NCBI GenBank assembly: GCA_038105035.1
Contig: JAYOBT010000006.1
Coordinates: forward strand, 4,704 to 68,703
Source of the DNA: Candidatus Poseidoniales archaeon
Lineage (GTDB): Archaea; Thermoplasmatota; Poseidoniia; Poseidoniales; Poseidoniaceae
Direction of reading: 5' to 3'
Length of the DNA stretch: 64,000 nt
Made by a program: the position numbers and the translations under genes. The notes below the pieces were generated by a model. That model was not told where the DNA came from. It did not search any database and saw only the letters and a program-made list of their open reading frames with translations. Positions 8,092 to 56,436 of this stretch are shown one piece after another. The number at the start of each line of letters is the position of its first letter. The first letter of the stretch is position 1.

Positions 8092-8146
8092 GTAGAAGGT
8101 CCAAAACGGCCGAGCATTTGAAATCCTCTCTGTTTTTCTTCTGACC

Positions 8147-16491: not shown

Positions 16492-17619
16492 TCAATCCAC
16501 ACGGAACAAGCATTCTGTTGGACGTTTGAAGAACACATGACGGTATTTGGCAATCAAACGATAGCCAATGTTGCGCAGTGGTAATGGAATCGCCCAAAGT
16601 ACGGGGAACCACATCTTGTAGTACCAACGCATGTACAACACGCAACGAATACCTGCGGCTGAACGGATGTAGGGTTTGCCGTTTCGAATCAAATACACGG
16701 AATCTGCATTGCGTAACTTCGCTGGAAGTGTTTCGATAACTCGCTGTGCATCTTCATGGAGAATCGGTCGATAACCCAGCTGTTTGCCTTTCGCCAAGCG
16801 TTTGTCAAGGAACGTCGCAAGACGATGACAAAGGCCACAGTCACCATCCAAGAACAGGAAATCACGTTGATCGCTCACCTCAATACGTTCAGCCACTTCA
16901 ATCGACCACGTTTTGACGGGAAGTCCTTTGGAGATATGAACCACATCTGGGGAAAGGACGTCCAATCCCATCTTGTACGATTCGAGCAACGTGTTCGTTT
17001 CAAGTTCGACCCCACCTTCTTGGAACGACCAAGGTTGATGATGCACGTAGGCGCGTCGAAGGCAACCTTCGTGTTCGGTGTACAGGCAGTAACGTTCGAA
17101 GAGGAAGTATTCCAATGAATCAGGTTCAGCCGATTGCATCGAACCTTTGGCATTCGACGTTCCTCGCAATTCTGCACCATCGCTTGATCGGCGCGATTGC
17201 CATTGCAAGGTATCTCCACTGCGTTTCACTTTGGCTTTTGCATAGCGATACGCAAGACCGTATGCTCGAGGGGCATGGAAACAGGTGACAAGACTTTTCG
17301 CGTCCAACGTAAGGAAGAAAACGCCCGGTTGTCCGTCCTTGACGACGTAGGTGCGCACATTGAATTCAGCAAAGGTGGAGATACCTGGAACAGCAGGCAA
17401 TCCTCGCGGCCGTACATTCTTCATGATGAATGGAATCACGCCAACGTAGGCTTCACCTTCGAACACATCGATCTCCAATCCATCTGGAAGGTGTGGTTGC
17501 AGTCGTTCAGCGTCAACCTTCCAGTGCATGAAAGTCAGGTCACGCCATTCTTGCGAGACGGCATAAGGGCGGTTTGGCATTGGGAACGGAAGATGTCCGT
17601 CCTCACGCTTTGCGCCCAT
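16492..17619 (-). CDS. fusion protein: N-terminal DUF2071 (YqjF-like) domain plus C-terminal DCC-family thiol-disulfide oxidoreductase (DUF393)
   Basis: The N-terminal half (WRDLTFMHWKVDAERLQPHLPDGLEIDVFEGEAYVGVIPFIMKNVRPRGLP...FAEFNVRTYV) is the DUF2071 pattern. The C-terminal FLFLDGDCGLCHRLATFLDKR is the DG.C.LC motif of the DCC family. Confidence 0.75.
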   Translation of the reverse strand: MGAKREDGHLPFPMPNRPYAVSQEWRDLTFMHWKVDAERLQPHLPDGLEIDVFEGEAYVGVIPFIMKNVRPRGLPAVPGISTFAEFNVRTYVVKDGQPGVFFLTLDAKSLVTCFHAPRAYGLAYRYAKAKVKRSGDTLQWQSRRSSDGAELRGTSNAKGSMQSAEPDSLEYFLFERYCLYTEHEGCLRRAYVHHQPWSFQEGGVELETNTLLESYKMGLDVLSPDVVHISKGLPVKTWSIEVAERIEVSDQRDFLFLDGDCGLCHRLATFLDKRLAKGKQLGYRPILHEDAQRVIETLPAKLRNADSVYLIRNGKPYIRSAAGIRCVLYMRWYYKMWFPVLWAIPLPLRNIGYRLIAKYRHVFFKRPTECLFRVD

Positions 17620-19043: not shown

Positions 19044-20753
19044 ATGGGCGAGCGCAGTGGTGAGGACGGTCTCCTTGCCCAAGCAGAAATTGCACCGCTC
19101 ACCGGCCTTGCAGAATCGCTTGGTCTTGACCGCAATGAATGGATTGAAACGGCAACCAAACCTCTTCCAGAAACGCTACGCCTCACCATGAACCACTACG
19201 ATGTGGAGTGGACTCGGCAGCAACTTCTCGAGATGGGTGCCACGCCTCTGTCTTGGTCGGTTGGGAACGAAGCCTATCAACTCCCCTTTGCTCGAGGCCA
19301 AGCTCCTCGCGATGGAACACGTGAACTGCTCGCCTTGCTTCACGACACGGGACGTGTGACACGACAAGAAGCGGCCAGTATGCTTCCGATTCTGGTGCTT
19401 GATCCACAACAGGACGAACTTCTTCTGGACCTCTGTGCAGCTCCAGGTTCGAAAGCCACCCATGCAGCAGAACGTATGGCGCCAAGCGGTGTCGTCGTTG
19501 CCAACGAACCGATTTCTGGTCGCGTCAACATGCTGGCGAGCAACCGAGGACGATTGTCGCTCCACAATGTGATCATCACCCAACACGATGGTCGTCACGT
19601 TGGACGTATTCCGAAACCAGGCTTCGATGCCATCGTCGCCGATGTCCCATGTACGGGAAGCGCCACATCTCGCAAGAACAAGGATGTGTGGTGGAGTTGG
19701 TCACCAAAAGGTGGGCGAACGATGTTCCAATTGCAAGTTGATATCGCTACCAGAGGAGCACAGTTGCTTCGACCCGGTGGGATGATGGTTTACTCCACAT
19801 GTTCCATCGACCCTGTCGAAAACGAGGCGGTCATCAGCGAGTTGGTTCGTAAGTGTCCATGGATGGAAGTTGTTGGAATCGATGAATCCAAGGTTGAAGG
19901 CTTGGTTTGGCATCAGGGCTTGACCTCATGGATACCACTCGATGAGAATGGAAAGGTCCCCGAACAACCAGAAGATGTTCCGTTCTTTGATGAACGATAC
20001 CTGCCGCCTAAGGAGCAAGAACTGCTTGCAGCATTGCCAAAGACCCGTCGATTGTATCCACAAGACAACAACACGGGTGGCTTCTATGTGGCCCTACTTC
20101 GACATCGAGAGGATGCCACCCCTGAAGGCGTTGCCAAGACGTTCATCGATAAGTTGGCCAAGCGACGTGAGGACTCCGGATGGGAGTCACGCCTCCTTGA
20201 CAAGCCGGGAACCAATCGCCACACCGTCCATGCTGCCGAAGAGGGAGAAGCCGCTATTGTCATGGAACAATGCCAATTGATGGATGCTGGGTTCTCGTGG
20301 TGGAAGCGTGGCAAGCGTATGGCTGTCGCTCCGAAACTTGTTCATGACCGTATTTGGGCACAAGAAACGCCAAACAAACGCGGCGATCGATGGCCAGGTG
20401 GAACCTTCCACCCACTGCAAGTGCTCCATGTAGGCCTGCCTGCATTTGTTTCCAAAAACGGCAACTGGCGGGCTCGACAAGAATCCATTCCTCTGCTCTA
20501 TTCACAACTCTCCGAGACAATTACGCACATCGAACACGATGTCTTGATGCGTCTTCTCAACAATGAGGCCCTGGAACCAGACGTGGTGTTCGGACAACAA
20601 GACCCGCCACAAGGTGCCTTCCTGCTGCGATGCATCCATCATACTGGCTCTCTTATCATCAACGCATGGTGCGGTACAAGAATCACGCTGATGCTTGACA
20701 AGGCTGAACGGCGCTTGTTGTCGATTCGTTTGGGTTTGGAGGAAGAGGAATGA
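19044..20753 (+). CDS. NOL1/NOP2/Sun (RsmB/Trm4-like) RNA cytosine-C5 methyltransferase with a ~230-aa C-terminal extension
   Basis: LLLDLCAAPGSKATH (SAM motif I), VVANE, FDAIVADVPCTGSATSRKN (motif IV, PC), and MVYSTCSIDPVENEAVI (motif VI, TC). Confidence 0.85.
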   Translation: MGERSGEDGLLAQAEIAPLTGLAESLGLDRNEWIETATKPLPETLRLTMNHYDVEWTRQQLLEMGATPLSWSVGNEAYQLPFARGQAPRDGTRELLALLHDTGRVTRQEAASMLPILVLDPQQDELLLDLCAAPGSKATHAAERMAPSGVVVANEPISGRVNMLASNRGRLSLHNVIITQHDGRHVGRIPKPGFDAIVADVPCTGSATSRKNKDVWWSWSPKGGRTMFQLQVDIATRGAQLLRPGGMMVYSTCSIDPVENEAVISELVRKCPWMEVVGIDESKVEGLVWHQGLTSWIPLDENGKVPEQPEDVPFFDERYLPPKEQELLAALPKTRRLYPQDNNTGGFYVALLRHREDATPEGVAKTFIDKLAKRREDSGWESRLLDKPGTNRHTVHAAEEGEAAIVMEQCQLMDAGFSWWKRGKRMAVAPKLVHDRIWAQETPNKRGDRWPGGTFHPLQVLHVGLPAFVSKNGNWRARQESIPLLYSQLSETITHIEHDVLMRLLNNEALEPDVVFGQQDPPQGAFLLRCIHHTGSLIINAWCGTRITLMLDKAERRLLSIRLGLEEEE

Positions 20754-21889
20754 GGGCCTACATCGTCCTGTTCCTCGTTGCTCTCCTGCCGCTCGCATCT
20801 GCTGCAACAAGCATTCACATCGAGTGGGATGTTGAGCAACCCGTTGATGATGACCGTCGTTATGTCGAACATTTTCCCAGTTCAACGGTTGAATGCACGG
20901 ATTGTGTGCAAACGACCAACGATGACATCGTCGTAAATTGGTGGAGATACAGCGACCAAACCGGCTCCTCATGGCCTGATGACGATGCGAATCTCCGAGC
21001 TGGACTGATGGGCGTTGAGTTGAATCAAAGCCGTTCCATTATCAACGGGAACGGTGAGGAAGAGCGGCAACATCTCATCGACATCCAAGGAACACTATCG
21101 ATCCGTTCGGAACTTGAAGACCAGTACTTTCTTGTTGCCAATTTGACGGTCGAACCATTGGTTGATCTTCGCAACGACGTCATCATGCAATTCCTGTTCG
21201 TCGAAGAGCAGAGTACCGATCAACACGGGCGTGAGTTGTCCTATCTTGTTCGTGATTTGACATCGGAGGTTGGTTTCTTTCGAACCGCAGGCAACATCTC
21301 AGAGGTGAACGTTACCGTTTCGTATGAACACCTCTTTGCTGCAGGCGTTGACCTTGTCGATGAGCGCTATGGCTGGAAGGTGTTCATCGTCGTCATGGGT
21401 GCGGAATCGGCTTCCCTCGACTCCCCTGGTGTTATCGCTCTCTACGAAACGTCGGTACCAACTTCGAGTGAGCAACTTAGCTTCATCGATTATTTACCAC
21501 CCATCGTGTTCATCGCAGTCGCCCTTGTTATCGTGTTCTCTGTCGTTCGTAGTTCGTTCAATCAGGAACATGGCTTGCCTGAAATCCGAGCACGCTGGAA
21601 GGATGGGGCCGATCCGGCCATCACCATCGAAATCGATGCCAAGCGTCGGGATGTTGCCATCCAAGGATGTGAAGCCTCCGAGCCGTGGTCCATGCGAGGT
21701 GGTGTGAAACGAAGCACCATCGAATCCGGATCAACAACGAATTTCGATGTTCGATTCAAAAAATGGCATCAACAAGGTTTGGTTTTGAAATTGAAGATGG
21801 AGGTCGACACGCTCGGTGGATGGACCCAAAACATCCGCTTACCGGTTCGCAGCAAAGCCGAACGAAGCGTTGAAGATGAGCAAGACTAA
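20750..21889 (+). CDS. hypothetical type-I membrane protein (signal peptide, ~240-aa ectodomain, TM, ~100-aa cytoplasmic domain)
   Basis: MRAYIVLFLVALLPLASAAT is the signal peptide. The TM is LPPIVFIAVALVIVFSVV. Its ATG overlaps the methyltransferase stop (ATGA). Confidence 0.6.
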   Translation: MRAYIVLFLVALLPLASAATSIHIEWDVEQPVDDDRRYVEHFPSSTVECTDCVQTTNDDIVVNWWRYSDQTGSSWPDDDANLRAGLMGVELNQSRSIINGNGEEERQHLIDIQGTLSIRSELEDQYFLVANLTVEPLVDLRNDVIMQFLFVEEQSTDQHGRELSYLVRDLTSEVGFFRTAGNISEVNVTVSYEHLFAAGVDLVDERYGWKVFIVVMGAESASLDSPGVIALYETSVPTSSEQLSFIDYLPPIVFIAVALVIVFSVVRSSFNQEHGLPEIRARWKDGADPAITIEIDAKRRDVAIQGCEASEPWSMRGGVKRSTIESGSTTNFDVRFKKWHQQGLVLKLKMEVDTLGGWTQNIRLPVRSKAERSVEDEQD

Positions 21890-22356: not shown

Positions 22357-22821
22357 TCATTCCTCATCTTGACGGATGATGGCTTCCATGTCCATGTGAG
22401 GGGCTAGCGCACCTGCGAGACCGCCCAAACTTTCCACCACTCGGGTTTCGGGTTTGAGCGTCTTCATCAAATTCTTCCGTAGGTCCTCGTCGATCATCAC
22501 ATCGAACGACTCGAGACGGCGGCGAAGATTGGATTGCAACTTTCCTCCAGTCCGGTCCCAATCCATCAGGAGGGTCATGGTCGAGCGCCTGTCGTTCGTT
22601 CGCGTCCCGTAGGTTTCGTAAAGATACGCAGCCAATCGATCCATTCCCCAGCCGCGATTGACGACCTCAATGGGGCCGACGAATCCAAGTCGAAGCAATG
22701 CTGCTTTGTCCCTCGGACCTTCGACGATGATGGCAAATCCTTCCTCGCGATTGCGGTACCTCGCCTCACCCAAGGCTTTTCCAGCAGACTGGAATCGCTC
22801 AATGGTGTTGGTTGGGTCCAT
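22357..22821 (-). CDS. small Toprim-domain protein (archaeal RNase M5/primase-like family)
   Basis: Start set at the ATG at 22821 (MDPTNTIERF...). FAIIVEGPRDKAALLRLGF and LLMDWDRTGGKL are the Toprim E and DxD motifs. Confidence 0.7.
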   Translation of the reverse strand: MDPTNTIERFQSAGKALGEARYRNREEGFAIIVEGPRDKAALLRLGFVGPIEVVNRGWGMDRLAAYLYETYGTRTNDRRSTMTLLMDWDRTGGKLQSNLRRRLESFDVMIDEDLRKNLMKTLKPETRVVESLGGLAGALAPHMDMEAIIRQDEE

Positions 22822-22988
22822 CTTTGCACCTGAAACTCGGACGATGGAATCTCTCTTGAAGATGTGTGAAATTGCGAAAGAACATACATTCATATGATAG
22901 AAAATTGAGGTCAAGAATTTCACTCTGGTGCTCGCTTTACGCCAACGCTTAAAGTGGGCCCTCTCGCCCCTTAGAACAAGGTGCAACC

Positions 22989-23966
22989 ATGCCAGCGGAA
23001 GATACCGTTTTCTACGTGCTTTACGACAAATACATGTTCTGGTCAATTCTTGTAGCGATTTTCACTTTTGGATGGCTCTTTACCGCCATGTTGCGCTACC
23101 GTGACGGTGTTGAACCAGATACCACAAAACTCGACCACATCGAGGTTGGCGCCTTCCCTGTGGATCGGCATAACACGAAACTGGAAGCCATGTTCTACAT
23201 CCTTCCAACCATCCTTGTTGTTTGGCTCACCATTCTTGCCCTCGGCTCCAACACAGCCGTTTGGAACCCTGACACCGAGGACTCCTTCGAGATCAACATC
23301 AACGCCTACCAATGGTACTTCGAATTCGACTATGCTGAGCAACTCACATGGGAAGACACCGACACTGGAATTGATGTCCAGTGGGACCAAGGTATCATGC
23401 AAGTCGATGCCTCTGGCAACCCTGATGCTGCGAGCATCGAAGTCAAGCTCGACAATCAGAAGTCTGACTATGAGATCAACAACGGTTCAAGCCTCATGGC
23501 CATCACAGCGACCTATGATCTTGGTCGACACACCTACGTCAAGGTCTTCGATGCTGAAGGTGCTTTGATTCACACATGGGAGCACATCCCTCGAGGACAC
23601 ACATTCATCACACCTTCTGAGCCAATGATCGTTCCTTGCGACCAACTCGTTGACGCGACCATGAAGTCCAGAGGTATCGAGGGCGATGAGCGCAACGTTG
23701 GTGTTCAACACGCCTTCTGGGTTCCAGAATGGGGAATGAAGGAAGACTTCGTTCCTGGGCTCGAAGCAGGTACAACACTCTACTTCATGCCAGACGATGC
23801 TGGCACTTTCCCAATCCGCTGTGCTGAGTACTGTGGTCTTCAGCACTCTGTCATGACCGGTCAGGTCATGGTCGTCGCTCCAGAAGGTACAACCTGTGAC
23901 TACGACTCCGGTGTCAAGAAGACAAACACGGACACGTCTGGAGACGATTATGGAGGTGAAATGTGA
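22989..23966 (+). CDS. coxB: heme-copper (cytochrome c/quinol-type aa3) oxidase subunit II, with a ~90-aa insertion in the cupredoxin domain
   Basis: Two N-terminal TM helices. QWYFEFDY, then the insertion, then VQHAFWVPEWGMKEDFVPG and the CuA motif CAEYCGLQHSVM. Confidence 0.85.
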   Translation: MPAEDTVFYVLYDKYMFWSILVAIFTFGWLFTAMLRYRDGVEPDTTKLDHIEVGAFPVDRHNTKLEAMFYILPTILVVWLTILALGSNTAVWNPDTEDSFEININAYQWYFEFDYAEQLTWEDTDTGIDVQWDQGIMQVDASGNPDAASIEVKLDNQKSDYEINNGSSLMAITATYDLGRHTYVKVFDAEGALIHTWEHIPRGHTFITPSEPMIVPCDQLVDATMKSRGIEGDERNVGVQHAFWVPEWGMKEDFVPGLEAGTTLYFMPDDAGTFPIRCAEYCGLQHSVMTGQVMVVAPEGTTCDYDSGVKKTNTDTSGDDYGGEM

Positions 23967-26347
23967 TGCGACGACGCGTTGTCGGCATCCTTTCCCTGCT
24001 TCTTGTCGCCTTGATGTTGGTCCCTCAATTTAGTGCCCTCCCAGGTGGAATTGGTGCTGCAGGAAACGCTGGTTGTTCCTGTCACGCTGGTGGCGATGAT
24101 GGTTCAACCGCCATCCTCGTTGAGGGCCTTCCTGAAACCTTCAATGCAAGCGAGAGTTACGTCTTCACCATCACACTCGTCAACGACGAGATGACACTCT
24201 ACGGTAACGGTGACCCAGCCCAAGGCTGGAGCGGCGTCCAAGGTGGATTCCGAATCGTCCTTGAGGGCGGTGGAAGCGTTACCACCATCGATCCATCCTA
24301 CAGCCAAGTTGTTGATGGTGGATTAACACACTCAGAGGACGGAAACAAATTCCGTTCATGGGACTTTGAATTCCAAGCACCTGTCAGCGATGCTGCAACC
24401 GTTGAGATGACCATCATCGGTAACGCCGTTAGCGGTGGTGCAGTCAGTGGCGGTGCAACCGGTGCTGGTGATGGTACAGCCAACGATTACTGGAACGTCC
24501 AGACCGTTGTCGTCCCAGGATTGAACGCTGAAGCCAAAGGGCCAAGCGCACCTCCATTGGTCATCCTCTTGACCGCTGTTGGACTGTCCATCTCCATTAT
24601 CCTCCTTGGAACGATGTGGGTCTTCTACCGACGCAGCCCTGAAACATTCACCGTTGGAAGTTTCTGGAGCTACCTCAAGCCGTGGTTGACCACAACAGAC
24701 CACAAAGAAGTCGGTATCCTCTACTTCTTGTTTGGATTCTTCTTCTTCCTCGTTGGTGGCGTTCTTGCGCTCTTGTTCCGTATTCAACTCGCTCTCCCAG
24801 AGAACGATTTCCTAACGCAGCAAGAGTACAACTCGTTCTTCACCTTGCACGGAACGACCATGATTTTCCTTGGTGCTATGCCAATGATCGCTGGATTCCT
24901 CAACTACGTTCTACCGCTCCAAATCGGTGCAAAGGACCTTGCTTTCCCTCGAATCAACGCCATGGGTCTTTGGCTTCTCGTCTTCTCAGCACCACTCATC
25001 TTCTCAGGAATTTGGTCTGGCGAAGGTGCGGACATTACGTGGGTCATGTATCCACCATACTCCTCACTGAGCAACGCTGGAGATTACGGTGCCAATGCAG
25101 GAACGACAGCGTTCATTGCAGGTATGCTGATGCTGGGTGCATCATCGACACTGGGTGGTGTCAACTTCATCACCACGGTGTTCACCATGCGAGCTCCTGG
25201 TATCACATGGATGAAGATGCCACTCTTCACTTGGTCTGCCTTCGTCAGCGTCTTCATGCTGTTCATGTCCTTGCCAGCACTCATCATTGGTGTTGCCTTC
25301 CTGATGTTTGACCATACGATAGGTTCGACGTTCTTTACAGGCGGAGGCGATCCGTTGCTGTTCCAACACCTGTTCTGGTTCTTCGGCCATCCTGAGGTCT
25401 ACGTTGTTATCATTCCAGCCTTTGGTATCGTTTCCGAAGTACTAGCGACGAGTGCGCGACGTTCCATCTTCGGCTACAAGTCGATGGTCTTCGCCATGGC
25501 GGGTATCGGTATCGTCGGGTTCATCGTTTGGGGGCACCACATGCTCACCTCGGGTATGGACCCATTCTGGCGTGCTGCCTTCATGATCACGACCATGGCG
25601 GTTGCGATTCCAACCGGTGCGAAGATCTTCAACTGGTTGATGACACTCTGGGGCGGCTCACTGGTCATGAAGACCCACACGCTTTGGGCTCTTGGATTCC
25701 TTATCACCTTCACACTCGGAGGTATCTCTGGAATGTTCTTCCCTGTTGCAGGGCTTGACACGCACTTCCACGATTCCTACTTCGTCGTTGCTCACTTCCA
25801 CTACGTGTTTATCGGCGGTACGGTGTTCGCACTGTTCTCTGGCGTCTACTACTGGTACCCGAAAGCAACTGGACGCAAGCTCAACGAGACACTTGGTCTC
25901 TGGCACTTCTTGATTGGATTCGCTTCCTACAACGCTGCCTTCTGGCCAATGCACGCTCTTGGTATCCAAGGTATGCCTCGTCGAACCCACTCCTACACCG
26001 TAGAGAGTGGCTTTGCCGAGTACAACATGGCGATCACCATCTTTGCCTTCATCTTCGGATTGAGCCAACTCCTTCTGGTTTGGAACCTCGTCTATTCCGG
26101 AAAGAACGGCGAAAAGGCTGGCAAGGACCCGTGGGGCGGTTGGTCCCTCGAGTGGTCCACCACTTCGCCACCACCAACTCCTTCCTTCCACGTCATTCCT
26201 ACACAGCGTGACATGAACGAAATCTACGGCCACCATGCTGAAGACTCGATGAAAGAGAAGCTGTGGAAAGGCAAGAAGAAAGGTGATGCAGCCAAGAAAT
26301 CCACTGTGGTGAGTGCTGTACTCTCCACCTCAGGGGAGGAGATTTGA
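23966..26347 (+). CDS. coxA: heme-copper oxidase subunit I fused to an N-terminal ~230-aa extracytoplasmic domain
   Basis: The ATG at 23966 overlaps the coxB stop (TGATG). From about residue 235 the canonical subunit I is present: TTDHKEVGILYF, WFFGHPEVYVVIIPAFG, GHHMLTSG, VAHFHYVFIGG. The N-terminal part is a signal/TM segment, a beta-rich domain with GCSCH, and an extra TM. Confidence 0.9.
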   Translation: MRRRVVGILSLLLVALMLVPQFSALPGGIGAAGNAGCSCHAGGDDGSTAILVEGLPETFNASESYVFTITLVNDEMTLYGNGDPAQGWSGVQGGFRIVLEGGGSVTTIDPSYSQVVDGGLTHSEDGNKFRSWDFEFQAPVSDAATVEMTIIGNAVSGGAVSGGATGAGDGTANDYWNVQTVVVPGLNAEAKGPSAPPLVILLTAVGLSISIILLGTMWVFYRRSPETFTVGSFWSYLKPWLTTTDHKEVGILYFLFGFFFFLVGGVLALLFRIQLALPENDFLTQQEYNSFFTLHGTTMIFLGAMPMIAGFLNYVLPLQIGAKDLAFPRINAMGLWLLVFSAPLIFSGIWSGEGADITWVMYPPYSSLSNAGDYGANAGTTAFIAGMLMLGASSTLGGVNFITTVFTMRAPGITWMKMPLFTWSAFVSVFMLFMSLPALIIGVAFLMFDHTIGSTFFTGGGDPLLFQHLFWFFGHPEVYVVIIPAFGIVSEVLATSARRSIFGYKSMVFAMAGIGIVGFIVWGHHMLTSGMDPFWRAAFMITTMAVAIPTGAKIFNWLMTLWGGSLVMKTHTLWALGFLITFTLGGISGMFFPVAGLDTHFHDSYFVVAHFHYVFIGGTVFALFSGVYYWYPKATGRKLNETLGLWHFLIGFASYNAAFWPMHALGIQGMPRRTHSYTVESGFAEYNMAITIFAFIFGLSQLLLVWNLVYSGKNGEKAGKDPWGGWSLEWSTTSPPPTPSFHVIPTQRDMNEIYGHHAEDSMKEKLWKGKKKGDAAKKSTVVSAVLSTSGEEI

Positions 26348-27693
26348 TGGGCGGAGGAGGCGGCAGCGACGTCAAGAACGCTGTCTGGATGCGTGCTCTG
26401 ATCATGGCAGGTATGATTCTCGGTTTTGCCGTCGTCTCATACGTCGGTCTCGGTGTTGTTGTTGCTGATGTGAAGCACCACACTTGGGAAGACGAAGAAG
26501 CACACTATTACGAGGTCAAGAAAGAGTGGCAAGATGCTGTCGATGCTGGTGAAATTCAAAGCGATGACAAGGATGCTGATCTGTACAAAGCCAAGGAAGA
26601 AGCCCATCATCATGAGATTGATGCGCACCTCTCTTATCTTACATACCGAGTTGCTGGATTGGCAATTCTCTTTGTTGGAATCATCTTCACAGCCTTCCTG
26701 GTCATCAGTGGAATCATGAATTCTTCACGACCAGATGAGCATCACGATGACCATCATGGTCACGATGAGCACGAGCATCATGGTTCGGCTTCGCCGATCA
26801 TCTTCTCGTTCGGTTGTCTGTTGTTCCTTCTCGGATTCCCTGACTTCGCTGACGGCCTGCACGGCCTGATGATGGGAAGCGCCAAGGGTACCATTGCAGA
26901 CCTCTCCGTCTCAATGATCGGATTGACCGTCGTCACGGTTGGTATCGCCAACTGGTGGCGAGAAGACCTCCCGTTCAACGGCTACGGTGAGCAACTCGCA
27001 ACCTCTGATCCATTTGCAGGACAACACATCCGCAAAGCAGGCATCTGGGTCTTCTTGATGTCTGAAGTGATGGTCTTCGCTACCTTCTTCTCATCCTACC
27101 TACGTATGCGTACCGAGTGGTGCACAAAGTGGGCGCTCGATGATGGCAAGTGTACCCTTGCTGAAGGCGAGTCCGTGGTCATGACTGCGTCGGATTATCT
27201 CCGGCCTGGTGGTGCTGCTGGCACAGGTGACTTCTGGACCATGCTACCTGGAGCTGTCAACACCTTTGCGTTGATTATTTCCTCATACACCATTGTCTTG
27301 GCACTCAAGGTTGCCAAGTCGCACGATTACAAAATGCCAGGTGGCTTGCTCGGCAAGATGATGCCAACCAAGAAGGCAGCCATTCGCAACTACCTCATCA
27401 TCACCCTCGCATTGGGTACAATGTTCATTGTTCTCAAGTTGGTTGAGTGGAGCCATCTCATCGCAGAAGGCTTCACCGTCGGAACCGAACAAGGTTCAAT
27501 CTTCTATGTGGCAACTGGTGCACACGGTGTTCACGTCTTCGCTGGATTGTTGGTCATGCTCTACATGGTCTTCAAGGCCGACACGGTTGAGTGGAACGAG
27601 GAGAACGCACAGGGAATCGAATACTTCGGTCTCTACTGGCACTTTGTCGATTTGGCTTGGGTTGTTATCTTCCCAGCCTTCTATCTGTATTGA
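26347..27693 (+). CDS. coxC: heme-copper oxidase subunit III with a ~215-aa N-terminal extension (extra TMs plus a His-rich loop)
   Basis: The ATG at 26347 overlaps the coxA stop (TGATG). The C-terminal ~230 aa match subunit III (GAHGVHVFAGLLVMLYM, YWHFVDLAWVVIFPAFYLY). Confidence 0.85.
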   Translation: MGGGGGSDVKNAVWMRALIMAGMILGFAVVSYVGLGVVVADVKHHTWEDEEAHYYEVKKEWQDAVDAGEIQSDDKDADLYKAKEEAHHHEIDAHLSYLTYRVAGLAILFVGIIFTAFLVISGIMNSSRPDEHHDDHHGHDEHEHHGSASPIIFSFGCLLFLLGFPDFADGLHGLMMGSAKGTIADLSVSMIGLTVVTVGIANWWREDLPFNGYGEQLATSDPFAGQHIRKAGIWVFLMSEVMVFATFFSSYLRMRTEWCTKWALDDGKCTLAEGESVVMTASDYLRPGGAAGTGDFWTMLPGAVNTFALIISSYTIVLALKVAKSHDYKMPGGLLGKMMPTKKAAIRNYLIITLALGTMFIVLKLVEWSHLIAEGFTVGTEQGSIFYVATGAHGVHVFAGLLVMLYMVFKADTVEWNEENAQGIEYFGLYWHFVDLAWVVIFPAFYLY

Positions 27694-27698
27694 GGTGA
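27692..27698 (+). promoter_or_regulatory. Shine-Dalgarno-like GAGGTGA upstream of the coxD-like gene
   Basis: GAGGTGA lies 4 nt upstream of the ATG at 27703 and overlaps the coxC stop. Similar GGAGG/AGGTGG elements precede the SCO1, Sec61-beta, rpoD and rps13 genes. Confidence 0.5.
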
Positions 27699-27702
27699 AA
27701 TT

Positions 27703-28068
27703 ATGGGCGAACACAAGTTGATTATGGGCAAAGACATTTACTTCTGGAACTTCATCGTTTTGATGCTGTTTACACTGTTTGAAGTTGGGGCGGTTTTCTT
27801 TGAAGAGGTTCCTGGAACGGACATTCCAATTTCGCTGACAGCGGTGTGGGCGATCCTCATCGTTGTTGGAATCGTCAAGGGATTCGGCATCGGTGCGTTC
27901 TTCATGCACCTTTGGGACGATCCTCGAATCTACCTTCGAGTAGCCATGTTCCCAACACTCTTCGTCTTGTTGATGCTTTGGGGAATTGGCCTTTCCAACC
28001 CTGAAGGTGTTACTGGGCTTCCTGGATGGTGCACACCAAACTGGGATTCATTAGTGACCGAGCGCTGA
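27703..28068 (+). CDS. small 3-TM oxidase subunit IV-like protein (prokaryotic COX4 family)
   Basis: 121 aa with three hydrophobic helices. The KGFGIGAFFMHLWDD motif resembles the FMHL signature of prokaryotic subunit IV. Its position is between coxC and SCO1. Confidence 0.6.
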   Translation: MGEHKLIMGKDIYFWNFIVLMLFTLFEVGAVFFEEVPGTDIPISLTAVWAILIVVGIVKGFGIGAFFMHLWDDPRIYLRVAMFPTLFVLLMLWGIGLSNPEGVTGLPGWCTPNWDSLVTER

Positions 28069-28077
28069 GGGGGACTA

Positions 28078-29604
28078 ATGCGAACCATCGCTGTCTTCAT
28101 CACCGGATTGCTGTTGTCGGTCGTTCTTGCTGGAGCACCTGTATCTGCCTACAACGGCATTCAGTTGAGTTATGCCAGTGTGGGCAATTTCACATTGGTC
28201 GATCAAAACAATTCTGAATACAAGCTATCGGATGCAACAGAAGAAATCGTGGTCGTCTCGTTCTTCTTCACACGCTGTCCTGACGTATGTCCGGTCATCA
28301 CCCAGAATCTCAAATTGGTTCATGATACGCTTCCAGAAGAACTTGAAGACAATGTGGGCTTCGTTGCCATCACCCTCGATCCAAAGTACGACACACCTGA
28401 AGTTCTGACCGACTACATGGATCGACACGGCGTTGATTGGCCTCACCTTACAGGCCCGACCGAGGATGTCAAGGACGTTTGGTCACGCTTCGCTATCTAT
28501 GCTGAGGAATACATCACCGATGCACACGATGACAACGTCAGCGACATGGAAGGTCAAGTTCATGATTCCAGCGTCGTTTATGTTCGACCTGATGGTACTG
28601 CTGAGGAACTGATGTTCCTTCCGACGGGCATGACCATGACCTCTGCAGCGGCTGCAGAAGCAGGTTGGTCGCTCAATACATCAGACACACAATACGGTAC
28701 GATGATCAACGGAATCGAAGGCTACGACTCACCAGCAGACTGGAGTTGGTGGTGGAGTCTCAAATTGTTTGATGAGGCAACACAACGTTGGGAAGATTCT
28801 CCTGTTGGTGTTGATTCCGTGAACGCACTTGAAGAAACGCACCTTGCATGGTATGCGACCAACGCTAACATCAGTCTCCTCGAACCACCAATGGGCGACA
28901 CACCGAGCGTTCAAGTCGTCTTCCCAGACAATACGACCTCCTTCACGAATGTTTCCACATTCACTGGTTACCACCTCACACAAGGTGCCTTTGATGGCGC
29001 TGAAATCGACGTTGATGTTCAGGACAGTCAGTTTGGCCACTTCCTGAACAGCATCGACAATGTTTCCGCTCCAGCCGACTGGAGTTGGTACTGGGAACTT
29101 CATACATGGAACGACACCTCAGCACAGTGGGAAGACTCCATGGTCGGCATGGATGGAATCGATGATCCGATGGCCATCGCTTGGGCTTCCAACAACACGA
29201 GCAACGATGCCATACCACTCCCAGGCTTTGCTGTCGTTGAAGACAGTGAGTGCAACGGACATGGTTGGGTCATGGGATCGGGAAGCAGGGCGCACTGCAT
29301 GTGCGACGCTGGCTACGAATGGGCCGAAGACGACATGCTCACATGCATCCCTGTTGAATCTGAACCAGAATACACTGTTGGGCATTTTGCCTACACCTAC
29401 ATTCTCGATGAGGACAAGAAACCTCGTGTCCGATACGTCGACGATTCATGGCTCGCTTCTGATTTCGTTGAGGATGTTGTCGAACTCGCTGAGCGAGAAG
29501 GCATCATCTCAAATGAATCGGAAGGCATCCCTTCGATTGGACTCCTTGTCTCCGTCGCAGTCGTCTCAATGGCTGCGATTTCTCTGCGATCAAAATCTGA
29601 GTAA
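28078..29604 (+). CDS. SCO1/SenC copper chaperone fused to two W-rich (DUF4430-like) modules, an EGF-like Cys module and a C-terminal TM anchor
   Basis: VVVSFFFTRCPDVCPVITQNL (CxxxC) and QVHDSSVVYVRPDG (conserved His) define the SCO domain. This is followed by the repeats ..SPADWSWWWSLKLFDEATQRWEDSPVGVDS.. and ..APADWSWYWELHTWNDTSAQWEDSMVGMDG... Then comes CNGHGWVMGSGSRAHCMCDAGYEWAEDDMLTC and the TM IGLLVSVAVVSMAAI. Confidence 0.8.
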   Translation: MRTIAVFITGLLLSVVLAGAPVSAYNGIQLSYASVGNFTLVDQNNSEYKLSDATEEIVVVSFFFTRCPDVCPVITQNLKLVHDTLPEELEDNVGFVAITLDPKYDTPEVLTDYMDRHGVDWPHLTGPTEDVKDVWSRFAIYAEEYITDAHDDNVSDMEGQVHDSSVVYVRPDGTAEELMFLPTGMTMTSAAAAEAGWSLNTSDTQYGTMINGIEGYDSPADWSWWWSLKLFDEATQRWEDSPVGVDSVNALEETHLAWYATNANISLLEPPMGDTPSVQVVFPDNTTSFTNVSTFTGYHLTQGAFDGAEIDVDVQDSQFGHFLNSIDNVSAPADWSWYWELHTWNDTSAQWEDSMVGMDGIDDPMAIAWASNNTSNDAIPLPGFAVVEDSECNGHGWVMGSGSRAHCMCDAGYEWAEDDMLTCIPVESEPEYTVGHFAYTYILDEDKKPRVRYVDDSWLASDFVEDVVELAEREGIISNESEGIPSIGLLVSVAVVSMAAISLRSKSE

Positions 29605-29648: not shown

Positions 29649-29733
29649 GCGGAGGTCGCATAGCCAGGTATTGCGCCGGATTTGAAATCCGGTGTCTTAT
29701 GACTCGGGGGTTCAAATCCCTCTCTCCGCGCCA
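29649..29733 (+). tRNA. tRNA-Ser (anticodon UGA), class II with a long variable arm, CCA encoded
   Basis: Manual fold. Acceptor stem GCGGAGG/TCTCCGC. Anticodon stem CCGGA/TCCGG with loop TT-TGA-AA. Variable arm GTC-TTAT-GAC. T-arm GGGGG-TTCAAAT-CCCTC. Discriminator G plus CCA. Confidence 0.85.
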
Positions 29734-29781
29734 TCCATTTCAAGAGAAGCATTCACAAACTCTAGGACCTCTCAACCGGAT

Positions 29782-31245
29782 ATGGGCCGAGTGTTGCTAG
29801 GCATTCTTCTTGCATCCACCATTCTTCTCGCTGGTTGTCTTGCACCCGTTTCACCCGATTGGGGGAGCGACATTTCCGTTGAACGAAACGGCGATGGTTC
29901 CTTCACGTTCACATCTTCAATGGCCGGTCAAACCGTGAATTCACAATACGATGAGCGCGGTTGTACCGATGGAACTGTGAATGCGGATCAAACTGGAAAA
30001 ATCAAATTCGAAGGATACATGAGTGCGAGCCAAATTTACGAGTCGCACGATTCTGAACTGTTGAACGAAGATGTGGCTTTTGCTACTGCTGCAGCGATTG
30101 CCGTTCACTCCATGCCGTTCGCTGATGCAAAGAATCTCCAATCGGGAGAAGGAGAGCGGGTCGAAGTGAAGGATTGGACCGATCCTGTCGGCCCAAAGAC
30201 TGGAGCAGGTACAGCAAACCTTGAGAAAATCGATAGTGAATCGGACAGCAAGTGGTTCGTTCTTGGATTGATTCCAGCTTCTGAGAACATCAATGATGGT
30301 GTTGCTGCACTCGGAAAATACCACCAACCAGTCCGTATCACAGGATATCTTGTCGAGAGCACAAATGGTGGGTCTCCTGTGGGAGGCATCTGGAGCGGTC
30401 CAAATGACGTCCAGGTATCACAAGATTGTGTTGCACGAACTGGAAATCAAAACATTGCTCAGGTCTATGTCCTTGTCACAAAGATCGAACTCGCCGACAG
30501 CGTTGTTAGCCTTGACGGTGAACATGAAGATGAGTACACCTTTGGTGATGTATCGATGCTCGGTCGTACAGGATTCATTCTCTTCTTGCTCGTTGTCGGT
30601 GCAGGTGGTGCAGTTGGTGCCTACATGTATTCCTCACTTCGACTCAGAATGAGTGCTCGAAGTGTCGCTCTTACCCTCCTTGGCAAAGAGGGTGTCGAAA
30701 AGGCGGCTCAAGTTCGTAAGGACGTCAAAGATGCGAAGCGCTCTGGAATGACAACACCTGATGAGCGACGGGCTGAACAACGCAAACAAAGCAAACCTAC
30801 TGAGACCCCTAAGAAGTCGAAAAAGAACGAAGACGATGGATTCGGTTCCTTCTCAATCGATAGTGCACTTGGAAGCGCTAGTTCATCACCTTCACGCTCA
30901 GAATTCGGTTCTGGAAGTTCTGTCGTTGCCTCTGATGATGCGAATCGCGTCGAGAAACAAATCAAAGACAGCGAACCTTTCGTCCCCCCATCCTCAACCT
31001 TTGGTGGAGGCGCTCCTGTCTCAAGTTCCTCTCCCTCTGCACCGACATCAGTGCCTTCATCCAGCGCTCGGTCCTCAGAGCCAGCGAAGACCTCTGAACC
31101 TGCTGACAAACCAAAGCCTCGACGTCGTAGAGCTGTTCGAAAGCAGGCCGAGCCCGAACCTGAGCCTGAAGCAGAACCAGAACCTCAACGACAGAAAGAG
31201 TTCTGGAACGATGATGAAGAAGAGTTCTCGGACTTCAGTTTCTAA
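29782..31245 (+). CDS. lipoprotein-like membrane protein with a ~190-aa disordered S/P/K/E-rich cytoplasmic tail
   Basis: Start set at the ATG at 29782, because the track start lies inside the tRNA. MGRVLLGILLASTILLAGC has a lipobox-like LAGC. The TM is GFILFLLVVGAGGAVGAYMY. The tail ends in EFWNDDEEEFSDFSF. Confidence 0.6.
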   Translation: MGRVLLGILLASTILLAGCLAPVSPDWGSDISVERNGDGSFTFTSSMAGQTVNSQYDERGCTDGTVNADQTGKIKFEGYMSASQIYESHDSELLNEDVAFATAAAIAVHSMPFADAKNLQSGEGERVEVKDWTDPVGPKTGAGTANLEKIDSESDSKWFVLGLIPASENINDGVAALGKYHQPVRITGYLVESTNGGSPVGGIWSGPNDVQVSQDCVARTGNQNIAQVYVLVTKIELADSVVSLDGEHEDEYTFGDVSMLGRTGFILFLLVVGAGGAVGAYMYSSLRLRMSARSVALTLLGKEGVEKAAQVRKDVKDAKRSGMTTPDERRAEQRKQSKPTETPKKSKKNEDDGFGSFSIDSALGSASSSPSRSEFGSGSSVVASDDANRVEKQIKDSEPFVPPSSTFGGGAPVSSSSPSAPTSVPSSSARSSEPAKTSEPADKPKPRRRRAVRKQAEPEPEPEAEPEPQRQKEFWNDDEEEFSDFSF

Positions 31246-56336: not shown

Positions 56337-56436
56337 AGTCTTGTGATGAACTGCCACTTCATGAAGGTGTTGCGTTACAGTCCATTCACTTGTTTGTGAC
56401 GATTGGTTCAAAGACGGTCGACGTCGAGGTCCAACC

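What the first reader, a model, noticed from the sequence alone, without database searches (positions are those of the whole stretch)
22989..29604. Heme-copper oxidase operon with no cytochrome c motif and extra modules on four of five products
The genes coxB, coxA, coxC, a subunit-IV-like gene and SCO1 are tightly coupled, with TGATG overlaps at 23966 and 26347 and SD-like elements before the last two. I found no CxxCH motif in any of the five products, so a caa3-type fused cytochrome c is absent. Instead there are four additions:
- CoxB has a ~90-aa insertion in its cupredoxin domain.
- CoxA has a ~230-aa external N-terminal domain.
- CoxC has a ~215-aa N-terminal extension with a His-rich loop.
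- SCO1 carries ~320 extra residues.

The electron donor and the role of the added domains are open. The added modules may form a lineage-specific electron-entry or metal-delivery structure on the outer face of the oxidase.
Basis: partly seen in the sequence, partly recalled or inferred. Interest (0 to 1): 0.65.

Follow-up and report, generated by a model that had tools for sequence, protein, structure and literature searches.

The report
Archaeal oxidase with fused Reeler-like domain
This is the oxygen-respiring enzyme operon of a marine group II archaeon: it has no cytochrome c part, but its main subunit carries an outward-facing extra domain with an invariant Cys-x-Cys-His site that may bind a cofactor and may be how electrons or copper reach the enzyme.

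Summary
The window carries coxB-coxA-coxC-coxIV-sco1 of a Poseidoniaceae (marine group II) archaeon. The genes are translationally coupled. None of the five products has CxxCH, and neither do 222 orthologous products. All four additions are real, but they are not equivalent.

Only the CoxA N-terminal domain is kept in every related lineage sampled. It is a Reeler-like beta-sandwich (NCBIfam choice-of-anchor V) tethered by one extra membrane helix. That motif is shared by thousands of mostly stand-alone, surface-anchored relatives, a few of which have CxxCH or Cx4CH instead.

The bacterial relatives the scan recovered have a cytochrome c domain on CoxB. These archaea lack it.

The other three additions are lineage-variable:
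- CoxB has an insertion of about 95 residues.
- CoxC has a four-helix extension whose His-rich loop is probably cytoplasmic.
- SCO1 has about 275 extra residues inserted inside the fold: two tandem repeats plus an EGF-like module.

My best reading, which is inferred and not shown, is that the CoxA domain holds a cofactor and feeds electrons to CuA. Copper handling and a purely structural role remain open. I rate it a new variant of a known enzyme, of moderate interest.

The parts
22989..23966 (+). coxB, subunit II (325 aa). It has two transmembrane helices and a CuA cupredoxin domain, and no cytochrome c domain.
   Evidence: PF00116 and TIGR02866. CuA ligands H241, C278, C282, H286 and M289, and the QW109 entry Trp, were read from the sequence. 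No CxxCH.
23340..23624 (+). Insertion of about 95 aa in the CoxB cupredoxin domain (residues about 118-212), specific to Poseidoniaceae.
   Evidence: The alignment with marine group IIb-like and Myxococcota CoxB shows the gap. It is the least conserved stretch of CoxB, at 0.43-0.71 identity per 20-residue bin. No Pfam family matches.
23963..26347 (+). coxA, subunit I (794 aa; the likely ATG start is at 23966). It is an A1-type heme-copper oxidase core with an N-terminal addition.
   Evidence: PF00115, E = 1.4e-143, residues 250-697. Invariant H296, D325, H476, E478, Y480, H525, H526, K554, H611 and H613. Foldseek gives 40-44% identity to the subunit I chains of aa3 oxidases.
23963..24037 (+). 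Signal peptide or N-terminal helix of CoxA (residues 1-25).
   Evidence: Hydrophobic helix at 2-18 in the model. The conserved PQF-x-A motif lies before the domain. Cleavage is inferred.
24038..24550 (+). Reeler-like (choice-of-anchor V) beta-sandwich ectodomain of CoxA (residues about 26-196).
   Evidence: NF041895, 55.9 bits against a cut-off of 42. AlphaFold2 pLDDT 87.3, pTM 0.84. The best structural matches are F-spondin reeler domains, E about 1e-4. Pfam Reeler matches 38 of 120 family members. Present in all full-length orthologs seen, down to 47% identity.
24071..24085 (+). The G37-C38-S39-C40-H41 motif, a candidate cofactor or metal site.
   Evidence: Invariant in 25 of 25 oxidase-fused domains and in 139-140 of 140 family representatives. 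The spacing varies in a few relatives: CxxCH, Cx4CH.
24329..24331 (+). His123 of the T-H-T/S motif, a candidate second ligand.
   Evidence: His in 135 of 140 representatives and Gln in 4. Invariant in the oxidase-fused set.
24554..24634 (+). Extra transmembrane helix (residues 198-224) that tethers the ectodomain to the canonical N-terminus of subunit I.
   Evidence: Helix 198-224 in the AlphaFold2 model, followed by the TTDHK segment.
26344..27693 (+). coxC, subunit III (449 aa; the likely ATG start is at 26347).
   Evidence: PF00510. Residues 231-449 align to five-helix actinobacterial CtaE.
26344..27018 (+). N-terminal extension of CoxC (residues 1-225) with about four hydrophobic helices.
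   Evidence: No COX3 match before residue 231. Identity among Poseidoniaceae is 0.37-0.88. CoxC is only 308-357 aa in the marine group IIb-like loci.
26728..26784 (+). His/Asp/Glu-rich loop RPDEHHDDHHGHDEHEHHG (residues 129-147), predicted to be cytoplasmic.
   Evidence: Sequence. Conserved at 0.71-0.79 within the family. The membrane side is inferred from helix parity and the positive-inside rule.
27703..28068 (+). coxIV, a small subunit IV-like membrane protein (121 aa).
   Evidence: PF03626, E = 5.5e-10. Syntenic in all loci examined.
28078..29604 (+). sco1, a copper chaperone for CuA (508 aa) with an N-terminal signal or anchor and a C-terminal transmembrane helix.
   Evidence: PF02630, E = 2.1e-27. 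C67-x3-C71 and His436 align to the SCO ligands.
28525..29361 (+). Insertion of about 275 aa inside the SCO fold (residues about 150-428): two tandem repeats of about 105 aa plus an EGF-like Cys module.
   Evidence: The split alignment to solved SCO structures gives query 35-149 and 429-462. The alignment with a canonical 217-aa SCO1 shows the gap. The repeats are 32% identical over 108 aa, E = 1.8e-17. EGF-type families match only weakly, E = 0.03-0.06.

Best explanation
Shown. This is the A1-type (aa3-like) heme-copper oxidase operon of a Poseidoniaceae archaeon. It has a CuA-bearing subunit II that lacks a cytochrome c domain, and a SCO1 copper chaperone as the last gene.

Shown. Subunit I carries a Reeler-like ectodomain (NCBIfam choice-of-anchor V). 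It sits behind a signal peptide and ahead of one extra transmembrane helix. This was true in every related lineage sampled. The domain has an invariant Cys-x-Cys-His segment and a second conserved His.

Inferred. The Cys/His site holds a redox-active cofactor, either a copper centre or a covalently bound heme-like group. The tethered domain then acts as a built-in electron-entry relay or docking module next to CuA. This is the role the fused cytochrome c domain plays in caa3 oxidases. Electrons would come from the Rieske/cytochrome b complex of these archaea, which lacks cytochrome c1, either directly or through a membrane-anchored blue copper protein.

The CoxB insertion, the CoxC extension and the SCO1 insertion are later, lineage-level elaborations. 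They are not required for this scheme.
For: - Identity and A1 signatures are established.
- No CxxCH occurs in any of 222 archaeal orthologous products, whereas 9 of 9 Myxococcota CoxB recovered in the same scan carry a C-terminal CxxCH domain.
- The CoxA ectodomain is present in all full-length relatives, at 47-94% identity.
- G-C-x-C-H, T-H-T, N-x-V-N-G and D-x-W are conserved in over 90% of 140 family representatives.
- Cys-Cys spacing varies (CxCH, CxxCH, Cx4CH) while the His immediately after the second Cys is kept. Heme c sites show the same pattern.
- One relative fuses the domain to a plastocyanin-type copper domain.
- In locus L076 a stand-alone paralog and a small anchored blue copper protein sit next to a cox operon whose CoxA also has the domain.
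- Published work reports no cytochrome c families in Thermoplasmatota, no blue-copper gene beside complex IV in Poseidoniales, and a Rieske/cytochrome b pair without cytochrome c1 in marine group II (PMC9287336, PMC6336850).
- From established knowledge: permanent fusion of electron carriers to oxidase subunits is common (caa3, cbb3), whereas fused assembly chaperones are not.
Against: - No cofactor is shown.
- CxCH is not a known heme-binding motif.
- A survey of archaea places a cytochrome c biogenesis factor family in a Halobacteria-specific module (PMC9258230).
- The fold matches adhesive Reeler domains, not cupredoxins or cytochromes.
- Several relatives carry the domain at the tip of adhesin-like repeat stalks or with type IX secretion tails.
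- Only 1 of 8 stand-alone family proteins looked up sits near respiratory genes.
- The blue copper protein next to cox in L076 shows that a separate donor can coexist with the domain, so the domain may not be the carrier.
- I had no model coordinates, so its distance from CuA is unknown.
- The motif arm has lower model confidence (pLDDT 52-85).
Confidence: 0.4

Rival explanations
1. Copper capture or delivery. The Cys-x-Cys-His/His site binds copper ions and passes them to SCO1, CuA or CuB. It would be a tethered chaperone or scavenger suited to copper-poor seawater. The enlarged SCO1 would belong to the same metal-delivery apparatus.
For: - Cys2-His sites are typical of copper chaperones. SCO uses CxxxC plus His, and Cox11 uses a CFCF motif on an Ig-like fold (established knowledge).
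- sco1 is in the operon and is itself elaborated close to its copper site.
- No Cox11 or CtaG gene lies in the operon.
- Eukaryotic Reeler domains occur in Reeler-DOMON-cytochrome b561 metal reductases, where the function of the Reeler part is unknown (bioRxiv 10.1101/2023.09.01.555970).
- Head-on-a-stalk architectures in relatives would suit binding something from the environment.
Against: - Assembly factors act transiently and are not normally fused stoichiometrically to the catalytic subunit.
- Stand-alone family members are not next to copper-homeostasis genes in the 8 contexts seen.
- There is no sequence or fold match to Cox11, PCuAC or SCO among the top 50 of the Foldseek matches.
- A relative with a canonical, unlinked 217-aa SCO1 still keeps the CoxA domain.
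Confidence: 0.2
2. Structural or adhesive role only. The Reeler-like domain is a surface module that stabilises the complex, contacts the S-layer or glycans, or shields the CuA side. The conserved Cys/His residues form a disulfide or a structural metal site. Electrons arrive from an ordinary blue copper protein encoded elsewhere in the genome.
For: - The closest folds are extracellular-matrix Reeler domains.
- Family members occur with CARDB, fn3, Big_7 and SprB repeats, with type IX tails and with PGF-CTERM anchors, as surface proteins do.
- Genomic contexts are mostly non-respiratory.
- A conserved N-x-S/T sequon (FNAS) fits a glycosylated ectodomain.
- A small anchored blue copper protein sits next to cox in L076.
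- Genes annotated as halocyanin and plastocyanin are transcribed in marine group IIb (PMC9723583).
Against: - Near-absolute conservation of C-x-C-H plus His across thousands of divergent relatives is unusual for a purely structural surface module.
- The fusion persists from 94% down to 47% subunit I identity.
- No blue copper gene was found in the window or within 10 kb of cox in Poseidoniaceae.
- The halocyanin and plastocyanin genes of marine group IIb are automatic names for proteins of 777 and 2641 aa.
Confidence: 0.3

Closest known systems
caa3-type cytochrome c oxidase (for example Thermus thermophilus, PDB 2YEV, and the Myxococcota operons recovered here)
   Same: - A-type oxidase with a CuA subunit II, subunit III and a small subunit IV.
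- A redox-carrier-sized extra domain is permanently tethered on the outer face.
- Subunit I shares about 40% identity.
   Different: - Here the extra domain is on the N-terminus of subunit I, not the C-terminus of subunit II.
- It is a Reeler-like beta-sandwich, not a class I cytochrome c.
- It has CxCH instead of CxxCH.
Actinobacterial aa3 oxidase of the bcc-aa3 supercomplex (PDB 6ADQ, 7QHM, 8OVC)
   Same: - These are the best matches for subunit I among solved structures (44% identity by structure comparison), and for subunits II and III by sequence.
- CtaC also has an insertion at the same point of the cupredoxin domain.
- CtaE has five helices.
- The system has no soluble cytochrome c.
   Different: - Actinobacteria receive electrons from the dihaem cytochrome cc subunit QcrC. 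Marine group II has no cytochrome c1 or cc reported.
- The Reeler-like domain, the four-helix CoxC extension and the SCO1 insertion are absent in actinobacteria.
Blue-copper-dependent archaeal oxidases (Sulfolobus SoxM with sulfocyanin; haloarchaeal and Thermoplasmatales complex IV with adjacent blue copper proteins)
   Same: - Archaeal CuA oxidases that work without cytochrome c.
- A membrane-anchored copper protein is the likely donor. L076 shows such a gene next to a cox operon of the present type.
   Different: - Poseidoniales coxA is reported to be of separate, bacterial origin (PMC9287336).
- No blue-copper gene is adjacent to cox in Poseidoniaceae.
- The fused domain does not have a cupredoxin fold.
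Reeler domain (PF02014) and NCBIfam NF041895 choice-of-anchor V; eukaryotic Reeler-DOMON-cytochrome b561 proteins (SDR2/FRRS1, CG8399)
   Same: - Same fold and detectable sequence relationship.
- In CYBDOM proteins the Reeler domain also sits on the outer face of a membrane electron-transfer protein.
   Different: - The solved F-spondin Reeler domains lack the His at the T-H-T position, and their alignment does not cover the CxCH arm.
- The function of the Reeler part in CYBDOM proteins is unknown.
- No paper in the library links Reeler to a heme-copper oxidase.
Cox11/CtaG copper chaperone for CuB
   Same: A membrane-tethered Ig-like beta domain with a C-x-C copper-binding motif (CFCF) that acts on subunit I. 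This is from established knowledge and was not tested here.
   Different: - No sequence or structural match appears among the top 50 of the Foldseek matches.
- Cox11 is a separate protein, not a fusion.
- The motif here is followed by an invariant His and paired with a second His.

Membership tests
A1-type heme-copper oxygen reductase (aa3-like cytochrome c oxidase) | Subunit I has the six His ligands of heme a, heme a3 and CuB, plus the cross-linked Tyr. | tested here: met
   H296, H476, Y480, H525, H526, H611 and H613 are invariant in 66 sequences. Positions were checked.
A1-type heme-copper oxygen reductase (aa3-like cytochrome c oxidase) | D-channel Asp and the Glu of the GHPEV motif, and the K-channel Lys. 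| tested here: met
   D325 in GAKDLAFPRIN, E478 in WFFGHPEVY and K554 in TGAKIF are all invariant. This agrees with the published A1 assignment.
A1-type heme-copper oxygen reductase (aa3-like cytochrome c oxidase) | Subunit II has a binuclear CuA site (H, CxxxC, H, M). | tested here: met
   H241, C278, C282, H286 and M289 are present, and the QW109 Trp is conserved.
A1-type heme-copper oxygen reductase (aa3-like cytochrome c oxidase) | Oxidises cytochrome c. | not testable with these tools
   The donor is unknown. No cytochrome c gene was seen in the window, and cytochrome c families are reported absent from Thermoplasmatota.
caa3-type oxidase | Cytochrome c domain (CxxCH) fused to the C-terminus of subunit II. 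| tested here: not met
   CoxB ends after the cupredoxin domain. No CxxCH was found in 222 archaeal products, against 9 of 9 Myxococcota CoxB.
NCBIfam NF041895 choice-of-anchor V / Reeler-like domain | Score above the curated cut-off of the family model. | tested here: met
   55.9 bits against a cut-off of 42 for CoxA. All 120 aligned relatives match the model.
NCBIfam NF041895 choice-of-anchor V / Reeler-like domain | Reeler beta-sandwich fold and a Pfam PF02014 match. | tested here: inconclusive
   Fold: the top Foldseek hits are F-spondin reeler domains, E about 1e-4, TM-score 0.45-0.61. PF02014 matches 38 of 120 relatives but not the window's own domain.
c-type cytochrome | CxxCH (or a known variant) heme-attachment motif. 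| tested here: not met
   The motif is C-S-C-H. Only a few distant relatives have CxxCH or Cx4CH.
c-type cytochrome | Covalently bound heme, and a maturation system in the genome. | not testable with these tools
   No whole genome was at hand. The only indirect evidence is from the literature.
Cupredoxin blue copper protein | Cupredoxin fold with His, Cys, His and Met ligands in a C-terminal loop. | tested here: not met
   For the CoxA ectodomain there is no PF00127 match and no cupredoxin among the top 50 of the Foldseek matches. A true example exists in L076.
SCO1/SenC copper chaperone | Thioredoxin-like fold with CxxxC and a distal His ligand. | tested here: met
   PF02630, E = 2.1e-27. C67-x3-C71 is present, and His436 aligns with the ligand His of solved SCO proteins and of a canonical paralog-type SCO1.
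Cox11/CtaG | PF04442 domain with the CFCF motif. | tested here: not met
   No Pfam or NCBIfam hit on any product, and no fold match among the top 50 of the Foldseek matches.

The most novel reading that the evidence does not exclude
The Reeler-like choice-of-anchor V domain is a previously unrecognised class of cofactor-binding redox domain. Its cofactor would be either a heme attached through an unprecedented Cys-x-Cys-His motif, possibly by an unknown maturation route, or a new Cys2His2 copper centre.

In marine group II archaea this domain would have replaced the cytochrome c domain of an acquired caa3-like oxidase, becoming the hard-wired electron entry point. That would also give the thousands of stand-alone anchored relatives, and perhaps the Reeler part of eukaryotic CYBDOM reductases, a function in electron or metal transfer.
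Probability: 0.25. Interest if true: 0.85.

Novelty: new variant of a known kind. Interest (0 to 1): 0.55.

Why it matters
Marine group II archaea are among the most abundant planktonic archaea and have not been cultured. How electrons pass from their Rieske/cytochrome b complex, which lacks cytochrome c1, to their oxidase is an acknowledged gap.

A conserved ectodomain hard-wired to subunit I, with an invariant Cys/His site, is a concrete and testable candidate for that missing link, or alternatively for copper supply to the enzyme.

The same domain family is large, is curated only as "choice-of-anchor V", and has no assigned function. A result here would therefore annotate thousands of surface proteins. 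It could also shed light on Reeler domains attached to eukaryotic transmembrane reductases.

If the domain proves to be purely structural, the locus is simply the ordinary oxidase operon of this lineage with lineage-specific decorations.

Tried and rejected
- The search for related loci with the N-domain alignment failed because the alignment had no stretch conserved enough. I used the full CoxA protein instead.
- A word-indexed search with the N-domain alone found only near-identical fragments. The exhaustive profile search was needed to see the family.
- Foldseek on the full CoxA model returned only subunit I chains, so the domain was modelled separately.
- Cytochrome f-like, cupredoxin and Cox11 folds for the domain were rejected: none is in the top 50 listed matches.
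- I looked for a blue copper or cytochrome c gene in the window or the flanks. Motif scans, Pfam on ten neighbouring genes, and a local profile search over 1.1 Mb of related loci found none near Poseidoniaceae cox operons.
- The extra 1.2 kb between the Lrp and Toprim-like genes in many relatives is an unrelated 406-aa gene.
- I suspected the SCO1 repeats were DUF4430-like, from memory. Pfam does not support this even at E = 10. EGF-type hits to the Cys module are weak and below the cut-offs.
- The "QVHDSSVVYVRPDG" segment (SCO1 residues about 158-172) looked like the SCO His strand. However, alignments to solved SCO proteins and to a canonical SCO1 place the ligand His at 436.
- The last homolog search, with the L076 blue copper protein, found only 9 relatives, none attributable to Poseidoniaceae.
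- Genes annotated "halocyanin" and "plastocyanin" in marine group IIb turned out to be automatic names on very large proteins, so they neither settle nor exclude a canonical donor.
- Whether cytochrome c maturation genes are present in this organism could not be tested.
- Sigma-70 promoter and terminator scans gave no more sites than shuffled sequence.
Full report
**What is there**

The region 22989-29604 holds five + strand ORFs of 325, 794, 449, 121 and 508 aa. They match COX2, COX1, COX3, prokaryotic subunit IV and SCO1/SenC. The stop and start codons of coxB/coxA and of coxA/coxC overlap as TGATG. GGAGG-like elements sit 5-10 nt before coxA, coxC, coxIV and sco1. A tRNA-Ser gene follows at 29649-29733.

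The closest proteins come from Candidatus Poseidoniaceae/Poseidoniales metagenome-assembled genomes, at up to 99% identity. The window therefore belongs to a marine group IIa archaeon. More than 40 related loci keep the same gene order: RsmB-like methylase, a 379-aa membrane protein, Lrp, a Toprim-like gene, coxB-A-C-IV-sco1, a 517-aa membrane protein, a DAG-kinase-like gene and RibD. They also keep the same enlarged product sizes.

**The oxidase core is ordinary**

Subunit I has all the heme and CuB ligands, the cross-linked Tyr, the D-channel Asp, the Glu of GHPEV and the K-channel Lys. All are invariant in 66 sequences. This is the A1 type already reported for Poseidoniales (PMC9287336).

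Subunit II has a complete CuA site and the conserved entry Trp. Among solved structures, the closest subunit I chains by structure comparison and the best sequence matches for CoxB and CoxC are from the actinobacterial aa3 oxidase of the bcc-aa3 supercomplex.

**No CxxCH, but a CxCH**

None of the five products has CxxCH, and neither do 222 orthologous products from related archaeal loci.

All nine Myxococcota CoxB proteins picked up by the same genome scan carry a C-terminal CxxCH domain, so they are caa3-type. Their CoxA is a plain 552-563 aa. These bacteria were recovered through shared peptide patterns and are not necessarily the true sister group. Published work does place Poseidoniales coxA with bacterial sequences.

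**The CoxA addition**

Residues 1-25 form a signal-peptide-like helix. Residues about 26-196 form a beta-sandwich. Residues 198-224 form an extra transmembrane helix that leads into the canonical cytoplasmic N-terminus of subunit I.

- The domain passes the curated cut-off of NCBIfam NF041895, "choice-of-anchor V".
- Modelled alone with 120 relatives, it gives pLDDT 87.3 and pTM 0.84.
- Its best structural matches are the Reeler domain of F-spondin, E about 1e-4.
- A sequence profile of the family also finds those chains weakly.
- Pfam Reeler matches 38 of the 120 relatives.

The domain is present in every full-length relative of CoxA that I saw, from 94% down to 47% identity. This includes three marine group IIb-like loci and a further lineage, L076.

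G29, G37, C38, C40, H41, H123, N154, V156 and G158 are invariant in the oxidase-fused set, and D175 is nearly so.

**The wider family**

An exhaustive profile search found 4197 cluster representatives (E ≤ 0.001). Most are proteins of 200-230 aa with a signal peptide and a C-terminal anchor resembling PGF-CTERM or a transmembrane helix.

In 140 of them, G-C-x-C-H, T-H-T, N-x-V-N-G and D-x-W are each 90-100% conserved. A few have CxxCH (CTPCH, CMPCH, CGNCH), Cx4CH or longer spacings. All retain the His directly after the second Cys. This pattern resembles heme c sites, but a disulfide loop or a metal site would fit it equally well.

Larger members attach the domain to CARDB, fn3, Big_7 or SprB repeats, or to type IX secretion tails. 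One attaches it to a plastocyanin-type copper domain.

Of the eight stand-alone family proteins whose gene neighbourhoods I looked up, seven are unrelated to respiration. The eighth, L076, places a stand-alone paralog and a small PGF-CTERM-anchored blue copper protein (CEPHVGIGM ligand loop) divergently next to ctaB-coxB-coxA-coxC-coxIV. That CoxA also has the fused domain.

**The other three additions vary between lineages**

*CoxB.* An insertion of about 95 aa (residues about 118-212) follows the QW strand. It is found in Poseidoniaceae. It is absent or much shorter in the marine group IIb-like loci (CoxB 214-271 aa) and in bacteria. It is the least conserved part of the protein and matches no Pfam family.

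*CoxC.* Residues 231-449 align to five-helix CtaE. Residues 1-225 add about four hydrophobic helices, an acidic segment and the loop RPDEHHDDHHGHDEHEHHG.
- Five-helix subunit III starts on the cytoplasmic side (established topology), and the basic residues lie at 206-230 and at the N-terminus.
- The His-rich loop therefore falls on the cytoplasmic side, and the acidic 42-98 segment falls outside (inference).
- A cytoplasmic His/Asp/Glu loop near subunit III could act as a proton-collecting or metal-binding patch. This is speculation.

*SCO1.* Alignments to solved SCO proteins split into query 35-149 and 429-462. A canonical 217-aa SCO1 from a relative aligns across the same gap, which puts the copper-ligand His at 436.
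- The extra is therefore an insertion of about 275 aa in the loop before the ligand His.
- It consists of two tandem repeats (32% identical over 108 aa, E = 1.8e-17) plus a Cys-rich module that is only weakly EGF-like.
- The protein also has a C-terminal transmembrane anchor.
- The insertion holds seven of the protein's eleven N-x-S/T sequons, which fits an exposed glycosylated module.
- One marine group IIb-like lineage has the short SCO1 unlinked from the operon. Two others have the long form.

**Donor question**

No cytochrome c or cupredoxin gene lies in the window or within 10 kb of cox in Poseidoniaceae.

- Published work reports no cytochrome c families in Thermoplasmatota, and blue copper genes beside complex IV in other orders but not in Poseidoniales.
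- It also reports a Rieske/cytochrome b pair without cytochrome c1 in marine group II.
- The "halocyanin" and "plastocyanin" transcripts reported for marine group IIb are automatic names on proteins of 777 and 2641 aa.
- A cytochrome c biogenesis factor family is reported as part of a Halobacteria-specific module, which argues against classical heme c maturation here.

**Interpretation**

The identity and architecture of the locus are firmly established. The function of the ectodomain is inferred.

I rate a cofactor-bearing electron-entry or docking module as most likely (0.4). The reasons are:
- the invariant Cys/His site;
- the permanent fusion to the catalytic subunit in every related lineage sampled;
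- the absence of the cytochrome c domain that the recovered bacterial relatives have;
- the association with cox and a blue copper protein in L076.

A structural or adhesive role (0.3) and copper capture or delivery (0.2) remain credible. The fold is that of adhesive Reeler domains. Many relatives look like surface proteins unlinked to respiration. No cofactor or geometry could be tested.

**Novelty**

The operon and the domain family are both present in public annotation. I found no paper in the library that connects a Reeler-like domain with a heme-copper oxidase. The function of Reeler domains in eukaryotic Reeler-DOMON-cytochrome b561 proteins is also stated to be unknown. This is a new variant of a known enzyme, with a testable and potentially more novel cofactor hypothesis.

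Noticed in passing
L076:1548-8636: A different Thermoplasmatota-like lineage (57% GC; CoxA 47.6% identical to the window's). It has ctaB-coxB-coxA(760 aa, with the Reeler-like domain)-coxC-coxIV on one strand. On the other strand are a 159-aa PGF-CTERM-anchored blue copper protein and a 211-aa stand-alone choice-of-anchor V paralog in which the second conserved His is Gln.
   Followed up: partly
L077:8001-9944 (protein P0180): A 647-aa surface protein that combines the CxCH choice-of-anchor V domain, three CARDB repeats, a plastocyanin/azurin-type copper domain and a tail resembling PGF-CTERM.
   Followed up: partly
L070:6001-7368: Two choice-of-anchor V genes in tandem, followed by two genes of 383 and 316 aa with no known family.
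   Followed up: no
L072:3427-5132, L073:89-2920 and L078:2360-5696: A stand-alone choice-of-anchor V gene recurs in three archaeal contigs. It lies next to ftsZ and radA in L073 and L078, and after an OsmC gene in L072 and L078. Some marine archaea therefore carry an unfused copy at a fixed, non-respiratory position.
   Followed up: no
alignment A3: 66 of 120 family members also match NF041894, the Myxococcus MXAN_6652 family with MXYO-CTERM anchors. Myxococcota is also the phylum of the caa3-type cox operons recovered by the CoxA scan.
   Followed up: no
L003:6914-8134 (also in L004, L005, L007, L009 and others): Many Poseidoniaceae relatives have a 406-aa minus-strand gene between the Lrp gene and the Toprim-like gene. 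The window and its closest relatives (L001, L034, L050) lack it.
   Followed up: partly
window 20750-21889 and 29692-31245: Two acidic membrane-anchored proteins of 379 and 517 aa, with no Pfam family, flank the oxidase neighbourhood. They keep their positions across Poseidoniaceae although their sequences diverge quickly (27-93% and 34-89% identity).
   Followed up: partly
window 22357-23046 (- strand): The longest ORF of the Toprim-like gene would overlap the coxB start by 58 nt. Orthologs are 151-182 aa in many loci, so the real start is probably the ATG near 22821.
   Followed up: partly
window 23634-23636 and 23895-23897 (CoxB Cys216 and Cys303): Two Cys residues, in PCDQ and in the C-terminal TTCDY, are conserved together in marine group IIa and in two of the three marine group IIb-like CoxB proteins. 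Both are absent from the third, which suggests a disulfide that clamps the cupredoxin domain.
   Followed up: no
window 11365-14766, 44637-48113, 48168-50747, 53631-56438: Several very large, highly acidic, lysine/arginine-poor secreted proteins (859-1158 aa). Pfam was run only on the first and gave no clear match. They are typical of marine group II surface proteins.
   Followed up: no
window 16492-17619 (- strand): The only real gene in the window with CxxCH (CGLCH) is a DUF2071 plus DCC1-like thiol-disulfide oxidoreductase fusion. It is not a cytochrome.
   Followed up: yes
window 7262-7339: The only tandem repeat in the window: a 30-nt unit in 2.6 copies, inside the 418-aa minus-strand ORF at 7099-8355.
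   Followed up: no
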